Assembly (NCBI GenBank): GCA_045047115.1
Contig: JASFYR010000010.1
Location: 1-64,000, forward strand
From: Sulfurospirillum sp.
Lineage (GTDB): Bacteria; Campylobacterota; Campylobacteria; Campylobacterales; Sulfurospirillaceae
Direction: 5' to 3'
DNA length: 64,000 nucleotides
Below are positions 514 to 59,998 of this stretch, one piece after another; position 1 is the stretch's first letter; each line of letters opens with the position of its first letter. Both the position numbers and the translations under genes were made by a program. The notes beneath the pieces are model-generated. The model had not been told where the DNA came from and ran no database searches. It saw only the letters and a program-made list of their open reading frames with translations.

Positions 514-585
514 TTTCTCTACGATAACAGCAGATACAAGGGCGAGAAATTTTTATTGGGCTTCACTTAATAAAAAGGAAACGAT
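514..585 (+). repeat. Leader element copy A (diverged)
   Basis: Gap-free alignment with the copy at 59907-59981 (TTTCTCT..CAG.AG.T.CA...GCGAG.AATTTTT), then hairpin 550-576 and AAAAAGG. Confidence 0.6.
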
Positions 586-593
586 AAATAATA

Positions 594-667
594 TTTTCTC
601 ACCAAAGGTGTAGCTTTAGTCGCGAGGAATTTTAAAGGAGCTTTGCTTCATTAAAAGGGGATATAAA
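594..667 (+). repeat. Leader element copy B (hairpin - AGCTTTAGTCGCGAGGAA - hairpin - SD)
   Basis: Core identical to the copy at 15178-15199; directly precedes ATG 668. Confidence 0.85.
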
Positions 668-57218: not shown

Positions 57219-58930
57219 CTTTTTAGTATCTCTTTAAGTTGGTTTAATGTCAATGAATTTATCACATCTTTTTTTTCAAGCCAACCTCTTCTTGCTTGAA
57301 AAACCCCATATTTCATACAATTTAGAGACTCAATATTATGAGCATCTGTAGATATAACAAATTTTACACCCATCTCTTTTGCAGTTTTCACATATATATC
57401 ATTTAAATCAAGTCTTTGTGGTTGAGAATTTATCTCTAAAAAACAGCCCTTTTGCATACTCTGCTCGAACAACAGCCCAAAATCCAAAGCATAAGCTTCT
57501 CTTTGATTTATCAACCTCCCGGTTGGATGGGCTAAAATATTGAAGTAGGGATTATCCATCGCCTTAAGAACTCTTTTTGTCTGCTTTTTAACACTAAGGT
57601 TAAATTTATCATGGATACCGCCAACAACCAAATCAAGCTCTTTTAAAAGTGAATTGGGCATTGCAAGAGTCCCATTTTCAAGTATATCAACTTCTATACT
57701 TTTTAAAATTTCAATTCCATCTAATTTTTCATTAATTCTATCTATCTCGCCTAACTGTTGTCTTAGTCTTTTCTCATCCATTCCGTTCATTACGGCCAAG
57801 TGTTTTGAATGATCTGTTATAGCTATATATCTATATCCTAATTTTTTTGAAGCTTCTGCCATTTCTTTAATGTTCTCCCTTCCATCGCTGTAAGTTGTGT
57901 GCATATGCAAATCACCTCTTAAATCTTCCGGTTTTATAAGATTTGGGAGTTTTCCACTCCTTGCGGCTTCAAATTCACCTCTGTTTTCACGAAGTTCAGG
58001 CTGGATATATAAAAATCCCATAGTCTTATATATATCTTGCTCACTAAATCCGGATATTTTTTGCTGACCTTTGAATATTCCATATTCGTTAATCTTCAAC
58101 TTTTCTTCTTGAGCCATTTTTCTAATAGCCAAAACATGGGCGCGAGATCCGGTAAAATAATGCAGGGCAGAGCCATAACTCTCATCTTTTACACATCTAA
58201 AATCAACTTGTATCTCATTTTCCAGTATAACAGTAGATCTTGTATCACCTTGCAAAACAACCTTTTTTATACCAGGATATTTTATAAAATAATCGATAAC
58301 TCTTTTTGGATTTTGTGAACTTGCCACCATATCCAAATCACCCACTGTATCTTTCCTTCTTCTAAAACTACCGGCAACACTCACTTTAAAGATATCGTCG
58401 AATTTTTCCAAATACTCTTTTATAGAATCTGCTTGTGGCTCGGCAACACTATATAAAAATCTCTTTCCTGTCTTTTTTGCAAATACAGTTTTATCCAAAA
58501 TCTTCTGTTCTGCTTTTTCACCAAAACCTCTCAATTCCCTTATCTTATGTTTTCTGGCTGCATCAATCAACTCTTCAAGTGAACTTATATGCAGTGTTTC
58601 ATGGAGTATCTTCGTCCTTTTGGGACCTATACCCTCAACCTTCAATAAATCCAGAATATGAGCGGGAAATTTTTTTCTTAGATTTTCGAGTTTTGCTAAT
58701 TTTCCTGTATTTACGATTTCGATTATCTTCTTTGCAATCTTCTCTCCAATAGCAGGCAGGGTAGATATATCAACTTCTCTCTTCACCATATCATAAAGAC
58801 TATTGCCAAGATTTTCAATCTCTCTTGCAGCATTTTTATAGGCGATTATCTTAAAGCGGTTATAACCTTGTATCTCCAATAACTCAGCAAGCTTGTTGAA
58901 TATATCAGCTATCTCTTTATTTGATATCAT
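57215..58930 (-). CDS. polX: DNA polymerase X / PHP-domain nuclease
   Basis: AGSFRR, GDLD, QVDFR, YFTGS, NEYG, PELRE; PHP DLHMHT, TDHS, AHPTGR, TDAH. Confidence 0.93.
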
Positions 58931-59906
58931 AACTTAGATATCTACTCTTTAGTTCGTTGCTTAAAAAAGAGGCTTTAAACGAGTTGTCTATCAGTTTTTT
59001 TATATCCTCTTTTTCTAAATTCAGACTTTTGGCTATAGCTTCAAAGTTCTCATTTAAATAGCCTCCAAAATATGCCGGATCATCTGAATTTACTGTTACC
59101 AAAAGACCAAAATCAAGCAATCTCTTTAGATTATAATTTTTAAAATCATCCACCACTCTTAACTTTAGATTTGAAAGTGGACACATAGTGAGCGGTATCT
59201 GTTCCTCTTTTAGCCTCTGCATCAATTCCTTATCCTCTTCACACCTGACACCATGGTCTATCCTGCTTACATGTAGAATATCCAAAGCCTCCTTGATATA
59301 TGAGGTATCACCCTCTTCTCCTGCATGTGCTACACACTCATAACCGGCATTTTTTGCCATTTGGAAAACTTTTTGGAATTTTGACGGAGGATTTCCTAAC
59401 TCACTTGAGTCTAGCCCCACACCTTTGATAAAATACTTATACGGCAGAGATTTTTTGAGTGTTTCTATCGCCTCTTCCTCACTCAAGTGTCTCAAAAAAG
59501 ACATAATCAAAAATGAAGATATACCCAGTTCTTCATCTGCATCATTAAGTGCTCTATGTATGCCCTCAAGAACATCTCCAAAGGCTATGCCTCTGCTCGT
59601 ATGGGTTTGGGGATCAAAAAATATCTCTACATGTACGATATTTTGTTCTTTGCATTTCAAAAGATATGCCCAAGTCAAATCATAAAAATCTTCCTGAGTG
59701 ATTAAAACACTTGCACCTGCATAGTAGATGTCTAAAAATGATTGCAAAGATGTAAAGTTATAAGCTTTTTTAACCTCTTCTATACTGTCATAAGATATCT
59801 TGATACTGTTTTTTTTAGCGAGTTTCAACATCAACTCCGGTTCTAGCGTACCCTCAATATGCAGATGAAGCTCTGCTTTTGGTAGATTTTGTATAAAATT
59901 TTTCAT
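58917..59906 (-). CDS. add: Adenosine/adenine deaminase
   Basis: [36 protein letters not shown]. Confidence 0.9.
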
Positions 59907-59998
59907 TTAACTGTCCCCTTTTTACGGAAGTGAATTCCGCAAAAATTCCTCGCGACTGAAGCTACTGCTGACGCAGAGAAACTTACCAACTTAACCAT
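59903..59998 (-). CDS. Putative 31-aa leader sORF ([31 protein letters not shown])
   Basis: Follows TATAAT (60015-60010); TGA overlaps add ATG; same frame through the element as the 15110-15238 sORF; alternative TTG start 59989 has GAGGA SD. Confidence 0.4.
59907..59981 (-). repeat. Leader element copy D
   Basis: CTGC-GTCA-GCAG hairpin, AGCTTCAGTCGCGAGGAA core, TTTTTGCGGAA-TTCAC-TTCCGTAAAAA hairpin, AAGGGG SD, then add ATG. Confidence 0.88.

What the first reader, a model, noticed from the sequence alone, without database searches (positions are those of the whole stretch)
514..59981. Dispersed structured 5'-leader element (4 copies) with covarying hairpins that includes the ribosome-binding site
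Seen: copies at 594-667 (+, before the NTase-PGM gene), 15161-15234 (+, before glgP) and 59907-59981 (-, before add), plus a diverged copy at 514-585. Layout: small hairpin P1, conserved core AGCTT(T/C)AGTCGCGAGGAATTTT, hairpin P2, purine-rich SD, ATG. P1 differs in sequence but stays paired (CACC/GGTG; TTTGGC/GCCAAA; CTGC/GCAG; degenerate in copy A). P2 does the same (TTTTAA-A-GGAGC/GCTTC-A-TTAAAA; TTTTTGCGGAA/TTCCGT(G/A)AAAA; TTTTTATTGGG/CTTAATAAAAA). In copies A, B and D an upstream TTTCTC can also pair with GAG(G/A)AA. All copies are in sense orientation, and the three intact ones sit at a near-constant distance from a start codon. Inference: a cis-regulatory RNA (riboswitch or protein-binding leader) or a domesticated mobile repeat that carries a translation-initiation module. 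The downstream genes (sugar-nucleotide synthesis, glucan phosphorylase, adenine/adenosine deaminase) loosely suggest an adenylate/energy link, which is speculative. I do not recognise it as a described family.
Basis: partly seen in the sequence, partly recalled or inferred. Interest (0 to 1): 0.85.

Follow-up and report, generated by a model that had tools for sequence, protein, structure and literature searches.

The report
Mobile repeat carrying a start signal
The four hairpin copies are not a riboswitch; they belong to an apparently undescribed 80-base mobile repeat of environmental Campylobacterales that lands on gene starts and brings its own ribosome-binding site and start codon, so the gene behind it can still be translated.

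Summary
The four copies and both covarying hairpins are real. They are not a four-gene regulon. The element has 69 loci in this genome, ahead of unrelated genes, and one core pattern occurs in 87 of 401 Campylobacterales genomes. Orthologous sites are patchily filled: 0 of 12 relatives carry it before add, and 3 of 10 informative genomes before glgP. Filled sites often keep the old ATG upstream. Target sequence is duplicated by about 6 to 56 bp. The old ATG mostly reads an open 25-31-codon frame that stops on or beside the new ATG (40 of 57), as in mycobacterial MIRUs. Two window copies show such a coupled uORF. Copies also sit inside RNase P RNA, before rRNA, and antisense to tRNAs. The sense strand is the folded one. 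No Rfam match, terminal inverted repeat, or linked transposase or reverse transcriptase was found, so the mobilising mechanism is inferred. The scan noted look-alike behaviour in unrelated CPR repeats but holds no sequence match. Verdict: a new family of small structured mobile repeats, MIRU-like in its effect on translation and REP-like in build.

The parts
1..68 (-). Separate repeat, not part of the element: GGGGTCAG-type terminal repeat of the kind that flanks this genome's TIRYT transposase gene
513..591 (+). Copy A, decayed first unit of a tandem pair; P2 at 550-576 intact, P1 and core decayed, no ATG
594..670 (+). Copy B: P1 598-613, core 614-629, P2 630-656, SD tail 657-667, ATG 668
668..3166 (+). 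Nucleotidyltransferase-phosphomutase gene whose SD and start come from copy B
15110..15238 (+). 42-codon upstream ORF from the presumed original glgP start; its ATG overlaps the pgi stop (15111-15113) and its stop overlaps the present glgP ATG
15121..15143 (+).
   Evidence: read from the sequence
15159..15237 (+). Copy C: P1 15163-15179, core 15180-15195, P2 15196-15222, SD tail, ATG 15235
15235..16878 (+). Alpha-glucan phosphorylase gene (glgP)
59904..59982 (-). Copy D: P1 59978-59962, core 59961-59946, P2 59945-59919, SD tail, ATG 59906; not found at the add site of 12 relatives
59903..59998 (-). 31-codon upstream ORF through copy D whose stop overlaps the add ATG
60010..60015 (-). TATAAT -10-like hexamer; several relatives without the element have the add ATG only 6-8 nt behind it (leaderless-like)
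   Evidence: promoter role inferred
58917..59906 (-). Adenosine/adenine deaminase gene (add)

Best explanation
A non-autonomous mobile repeat of about 80 nt. Layout: P1 (6 bp with a one-base bulge), a core of about 16 nt, P2 (11 bp, 5-nt loop), a purine tail and, in the SD subfamilies, an ATG. SHOWN: it is gained and lost at single gene starts. It goes in just behind the native ATG, or up to about 45 nt ahead of a native SD for the non-SD subfamily. It duplicates a variable length of target and grows into tandem arrays. It supplies a new SD and ATG, and the stranded old ATG usually reads an open frame that ends on or next to the new start. INFERRED: this keeps the host gene translated and coupled, which lets the repeat persist in a gene-dense genome. 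INFERRED mechanism (about 45%): the sense strand folds as single-stranded DNA and is copied into a target by strand transfer or template switching, guided by likeness of its 3' end to SD-ATG regions. An unidentified hairpin-recognising (HUH-like) or host enzyme would do this. RNA-templated copying about 20%; other routes about 35%.
For: Empty/filled sites: add 0 of 12 relatives (two show short decayed look-alikes); glgP filled in 3 of 10 informative genomes with three different variants, and empty in the relative with the most similar glgP; NTase site filled in 7, decayed in 1, empty in 3 of 11. Of 59 arrays of G003, 30 are shared with this genome, 25 have no copy called here and 4 are unmapped; clean pairs show short ATG-containing duplications. 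Direct repeats of 25-56 nt flank 7 of 190 arrays at three or more independent sites, versus 0 of 3000 shuffled pairs. Copy number ranges from 0-3 in one genus to tens in others. Copies lie inside RNase P RNA P12, before 16S/23S rRNA, and antisense to tRNAs or a 23S leader in 8 loci. The old-ATG frame is open through P2 in 43 of 57 versus 22 of 114 for the other frames; the stop overlaps the new ATG as ATGA in 22 of 43. SD-tail last units start an ORF in 152 of 176, non-SD ones in 9 of 78. G.T outnumbers A.C 249 to 31 on the sense strand; P1 loops are 101 AAA-type triloops, 42 GNYA and 15 GNRA of 210, closed by C-G in 179. That loop spectrum resembles stable DNA mini-hairpins (recalled knowledge).
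Against: No mobilising enzyme was found. This genome has no RT match and RTs occur in 20 of 61 family genomes. Its three Y1 transposase loci carry no copy, and the TIRYT gene does not track the element. Stems differ widely between copies of one genome while keeping their lengths, more like a selected RNA structure than fresh transposition. Some sites are shared across genera. 57 of 59 resolvable loci here abut gene starts although other AAATG words outside ORFs are more numerous (828 versus 131), so short microhomology alone does not explain targeting. Copies are related, so the frame statistics overstate independence. Most arrays show no long duplication. Transcription-linked C-to-T change could add to the G.T excess. 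One copy replaced a loop rather than inserting (L398). No expression data were obtained.
Confidence: 0.72

Rival explanations
1. A host-selected cis-acting RNA module (translation enhancer, 5' stabiliser or protein-binding leader) that spreads between genes by gene conversion because it is useful. The purine-rich internal loop below P2 that holds the SD would be the working part.
For: Strong covariation with fixed stem lengths; sense-strand G.T bias; none of the 59 resolvable loci here is antisense; old shared sites at argF, dnaK, rplL and rnpB; core position -4 and tail position +2 co-vary as G/G 205 and T/A 98 of 342, though this may only reflect subfamily descent.
Against: Antisense copies at tRNAs and a 23S leader; copies inside RNase P RNA; patchy presence among close kin; no common gene function; no significant codon-bias sign of high expression (p=0.10 with a weak 14-gene reference); low-copy genus copies score lower, as if decaying.
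Confidence: 0.17
2. A riboswitch or ligand-sensing leader tied to adenylate, energy or sugar-phosphate metabolism.
For: Conserved unpaired core next to an SD; fixed distance to ATG in the SD subfamilies.
Against: 69 loci with unrelated genes; the add copy is confined to this genome among 13; non-SD, antisense and ncRNA-embedded copies exist; no Rfam match.
Confidence: 0.03
3. An RNA-templated (SINE-like) retro-element: the structured transcript is primed at ATG-containing targets and reverse-transcribed, giving variable target duplications.
For: Variable duplications of 6-56 bp, a fixed 3' end near the element's own ATG, sense-strand folding, no terminal inverted repeats.
Against: No RT match in this genome or in G003 (91 copies), G013 or G069; RTs are no commoner in element-rich genera (10 of 30) than in the poor genus (10 of 28); not found in a real form in phage contigs; P1 loops look DNA-like.
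Confidence: 0.08

Closest known systems
MIRU (mycobacterial interspersed repetitive units), as summarised in PMC12548453 (passage read)
   Same: Short dispersed repeat that appears mobile, inserts at start codons and leaves an internal ORF coupled to the target gene with -4 spacing; tandem arrays (recalled).
   Different: Different phylum; this element has two strongly covarying hairpins (MIRUs lack dyad symmetry, recalled), carries its own SD, uses either of two frames, has non-SD variants, long variable duplications and copies in RNase P RNA and rRNA leaders. No sequence comparison with MIRUs was run.
REP/BIME/REPIN repeats with RAYT (GTAG and CGTC families; PMC3733652, passages and section 5 read)
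   Same: Short stem-loops with G.T pairs on one strand, subfamilies with compensatory stems, tandem clusters with flanking DNA.
   Different: REPs lie mainly downstream of genes, often as inverted dimers, with a terminal GTAG or CGTC tag and a flanked RAYT gene. This element sits at gene starts, always head-to-tail (0 of 69 mixed-strand arrays), and flanks no Y1 gene. Figure 1 of that paper, with the consensus sequences including a Sulfurovum family, could not be seen.
TIRYT terminal repeats, consensus GGGG[AT][CG]A[CG] (PMC6006769, two passages read)
   Same: The youngest subfamily's tail can read GGGGACAG, which fits the consensus; TIRYT genes are present in the genome.
   Different: Other subfamilies lack the word; the genome's TIRYT genes have their own inverted flanks; 2 of 30 TIRYT loci have a copy nearby, both at the gyrA start.
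Bacterial MITEs (Correia, RUP, ERIC; recalled)
   Same: Small non-autonomous repeats that can bring expression signals.
   Different: No terminal inverted repeats were seen in the alignments, and the duplication length is not fixed.

Membership tests
Rfam families (riboswitches, leaders) | Match at gathering score | tested here: not met
   0 matches in the window; weak hits far below threshold on copies A/B; none on four other copies
Riboswitch | Shared downstream gene function and conserved placement | tested here: not met
Riboswitch | Ligand binding | not testable with these tools
   needs in-line probing
MIRU-like behaviour | Insertion at start codons, in gene orientation | tested here: met
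   57 of 59 resolvable loci; empty/filled pairs
MIRU-like behaviour | Internal ORF coupled to the target gene with -4 spacing | tested here: met
   40 of 57 stop on or beside the new start, 22 with ATGA; window copies C and D. 94 of 151 have no ATG in the tested upstream window
MIRU (membership) | No dyad symmetry; mycobacterial host (recalled) | tested here: not met
   two covarying hairpins; Campylobacterota hosts
REP/RAYT | Terminal GTAG or CGTC tag at the stem foot | tested here: not met
   no such tag at the foot of P1 or P2; GTAG occurs mid-core in one subfamily only
REP/RAYT | Inverted dimers, location downstream of genes | tested here: not met
   0 of 69 mixed-strand arrays; loci at gene starts
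REP/RAYT | Cognate Y1 transposase gene flanked by the repeat | tested here: not met
   0 of 3 own loci; 2 of 30 TIRYT loci with one copy, at the next gene's start. Other Y1 subfamilies were not surveyed by locus
MITE | Fixed-length target-site duplication | tested here: not met
   about 6 to 56 nt
MITE | Terminal inverted repeats | tested here: inconclusive
   none seen in alignments; judged by eye, ends are not sharply defined
Retro-element | Co-occurring reverse transcriptase | tested here: not met
   no copy at 10 RT loci
Kink-turn | Tandem G.A/A.G pairs plus Watson-Crick pair closing a 3-nt bulge (recalled consensus) | tested here: not met
   17 of 342 copies meet all three

The most novel reading that the evidence does not exclude
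A self-spreading translation-start module that moves without any known transposase family or terminal repeats. Its folded sense strand, as non-template DNA or as RNA, is copied specifically into ribosome-binding regions with long variable target duplications. It rewires leaderless or overlapping starts into SD-led, uORF-coupled ones, and at old sites (RNase P P12, argF, dnaK, ribosomal operons) has become a host structure.
Probability: 0.25. Interest if true: 0.85.

Novelty: new variant of a known kind. Interest (0 to 1): 0.62.

Why it matters
It shows a selfish repeat solving the problem of a gene-dense genome by carrying its own SD and start codon and keeping translational coupling, convergent with mycobacterial MIRUs but with a defined two-hairpin structure. 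Many natural empty/filled pairs exist, and cultured Sulfurospirillum, Sulfurimonas and Sulfurovum are likely hosts (the named records seen were mostly metagenome assemblies). That makes two open questions testable: how small enzyme-less repeats move, and how leaderless starts become SD-led. It is also a warning for RNA motif discovery: strong covariation plus a fixed position before start codons here marks a mobile repeat, not a riboswitch. The arrays break assemblies (10 of 69 loci end at a contig edge).

Tried and rejected
Rfam: nothing. A first structural parser used a wrong P2 length and was discarded (redone). Sequencing runs: none was listed, so no reads were laid; this is no evidence either way. 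Phage contigs: 2 pattern hits, neither with P2. RT as partner: rejected. TIRYT or IS605 transposases as partner: no flanking; TIRYT is in 23 of 30 genomes of a family with 0 of 30 pattern hits and in 19 of 20 of the low-copy genus, and was not found at E<=1e-40 in element-bearing G013 and G007. A copy near an IS605 in G012 proved to be the atpE start. Replication-strand targeting: 38 of 49 copies leading versus 912 of 1475 genes (p=0.015), but the 11 lagging copies follow their genes, so it is not the main rule. High-expression bias: not significant. Kink-turn and the extra 5'-flank helix: not family-wide. Hammerhead-type core: considered by eye, conserved bases do not fit (recalled consensus). 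Conserved leader peptide: rejected, two different frames are used. A fixed cleavage point: many half copies end at or just after the first seven core bases, suggestive only. Paper searches that showed no description of this element: 0 hits; listings seen; the library lacks most subscription journals.

Full report
Observation. The four copies are present as described. A covariance model built from 120 copies of several genera scores them at 513-591, 594-670, 15159-15237 and 59904-59982 and finds nothing else in the window. Rfam gives no match at gathering level and only weak unrelated hits at relaxed level. The downstream genes are a nucleotidyltransferase-phosphomutase, an alpha-glucan phosphorylase and an adenosine deaminase.

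A genome-wide repeat. A profile search gives 84 hits at E<0.05, against a best E of 0.084 in the reversed genome. They merge into 69 loci or tandem arrays, none of mixed strand. 57 are followed by a same-strand ATG-led ORF, 10 end at a contig edge, one lies in the RNase P RNA gene and one has no start within 70 nt. 47 of the 57 downstream proteins were scanned. They include L11, L12, L13, IF-1, SecY, RNA polymerase subunits, flagellar rod and hook proteins, SoxZ, DnaK, ClpB, P-II, PurS, PurE, PdxA, MoeA and transporters. There is no adenylate or sugar regulon.

Anatomy. P1 is six pairs with a one-base bulge and a 3-4 nt loop. A core of about 16 nt follows, then P2 (11 bp, 5-nt loop), then a purine tail. 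Three subfamilies pair a core with a tail: GGGGAC, GGAGA or GAAGA, and GATGAC. In the SD forms the ATG lies 11-12 nt after P2 (35 of 68 parsed copies); the non-SD form sits about 25-45 nt ahead of a start with its own SD. On 117 distinct sequences, 95.9% of cells pair versus 64.9% in shuffles and 42-60% with slid partners, and 16 of 17 pairs show two-sided change. That alignment was fitted to the model, but the plain MAFFT alignment of 26 copies gives the same result. With copies selected on Watson-Crick pairs only, G.T outnumbers A.C 249 to 31 on the sense strand, or 183 to 28 without the most biased column. Of 210 P1 loops, 101 are AAA-type triloops, 42 GNYA, 15 GNRA, 1 UUCG and 51 other; 179 close with C-G. 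From recalled knowledge this fits DNA mini-hairpins better than RNA tetraloops.

Distribution. One core pattern is found in 87 of 401 order genomes in nine families, with zero control hits, and was not found in five well-sampled families (0 of 39, 38, 30, 38 and 22). A class-wide model search hit 11 of 151. Two phage hits lack P2.

Mobility. At add, none of 12 relatives has the element; two show short decayed look-alikes, and several have the ATG only 6-8 nt behind a TATAAT hexamer. At glgP, 3 of 10 informative genomes are filled, each with a different variant; two further loci were dropped as uninformative. At the NTase gene 7 are filled, 1 decayed and 3 empty. All 91 model hits of G003 were fetched and gave 59 arrays: 30 shared with this genome, 25 without a called copy here, 4 unmapped. 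Among the 19 printed alignments, several are clean insertions behind the native ATG with a 6-8 nt duplication (L391, L371, L165), one site here holds a decayed copy (L387), two align poorly, and one is a loop replacement by a half element (L398). Of 238 arrays, 48 with decayed upstream pieces were dropped. Among the other 190, 7 are flanked by gene-specific direct repeats of 25-56 nt, at the lepA 3' end, at one other gene end and at L319, versus 0 of 3000 shuffled pairs. Copies also sit in P12 of RNase P RNA, including this genome's own gene, just before 16S or 23S rRNA, and antisense to tRNAs or a 23S leader in eight loci. Some sites are old: argF, dnaK, rplL, rpoZ, flgE and rnpB recur across genera.

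Effect on translation. Last units with an SD tail start an ORF from their own start codon in 152 of 176 cases, non-SD units in 9 of 78. Of 151 SD-type units, 57 keep an ATG just ahead of P1 (background window 47 of 280). In 40 of the 57 that ATG reads a 25-31-codon frame ending on or beside the new start; 14 stop early and 3 run past. The used frame is open through P2 in 43 of 57 versus 22 of 114 for the other two frames, with an ATGA overlap in 22. Copies are related, so these counts are not independent. Two frames are used, so the peptide is not the point. In the window, the pgi stop overlaps an ATG at 15110 that opens a 42-codon frame through the half copy and copy C and ends on the glgP ATG. 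A 31-codon frame does the same at add. 14 of 26 testable SD copies in this genome show such a frame, with no null computed. Translation of these uORFs was not measured.

How it moves. Not shown. This genome has no RT match and RTs are patchy. Its Y1 genes are an IS605 and two TIRYT-type genes with their own inverted flanks, none flanked by the element. The TIRYT gene does not follow the element across the order. Orientation follows the gene more than the replication fork. Short AAATG likeness alone cannot explain targeting. Variable duplications, a 3' junction near the element's own ATG, half copies, a replacement event and one folded strand fit best with single-stranded copying guided by SD-ATG likeness, with selection removing copies that break translation. 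This is inference.

Comparison and verdict. It works like a MIRU, which PMC12548453 describes as inserting at start codons with an ORF coupled at -4 (passage read), but it is not one. It is built like a REP but fails the tag, dimer, position and flanked-transposase tests (PMC3733652: passages, section 5 and a search of four supplements read; its Figure 1 consensus list was not visible and could bear on novelty). Nine paper searches showed no description of it. Earlier scan notes describe similar behaviour in unrelated CPR repeats and other Campylobacterota repeats, but sequence look-ups found no match. I file it as a new variant of small mobile intergenic repeats, with interest 0.62.

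Noticed in passing
window 1-68; G000 C28:3040-3095, C31:17174-17234, C31 start: Empty TIRYT-type shells: two inverted GGGGTCAG terminal repeats with no gene between them, a second small repeat family in this genome.
   Followed up: partly
G000 C9:162661-162739; L086, L087, L092, L096, L097, L099, L245, L271, L287: RNase P RNA genes carry the whole element in or at P12; the flanks differ between L245-type and L271/L287-type genes, possibly separate insertions.
   Followed up: partly
L016 and L404-L433: A mostly single-copy Y1 transposase with a C-terminal extension is kept in 32 of 38 family genomes; in this genome it lies between a comF-like gene and gyrA, which looks domesticated.
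   Followed up: partly
L002, L003 upstream of add: Other unrelated hairpin repeats occupy the same intergenic region in two relatives.
   Followed up: no
L004, L005, L007-L009, L011 (add starts): The add ATG lies 6-8 nt after a TATAAT hexamer with no SD, suggesting leaderless mRNA; copy D would convert it to an SD-led start.
   Followed up: partly
L398 versus G000 C29:33670: A half element (end of core, P2, tail) replaces the loop of a leader hairpin before a gene that looks like rpsB (recalled from the sequence).
   Followed up: no
G000, word list: Further over-represented 16-mers outside the element (10-12 copies each), probably other repeat families or a CRISPR-like array.
   Followed up: no
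G000 C12 near 37.6 kb: GC skew at four-fold sites switches sign here, a candidate replication origin or terminus; the Gly-Leu-Cys-Ser tRNA cluster appears to lie head-on to replication.
   Followed up: partly
L308: A short rRNA-spacer contig titled as a gammaproteobacterial genome carries an intact copy; likely mis-binned.
   Followed up: no
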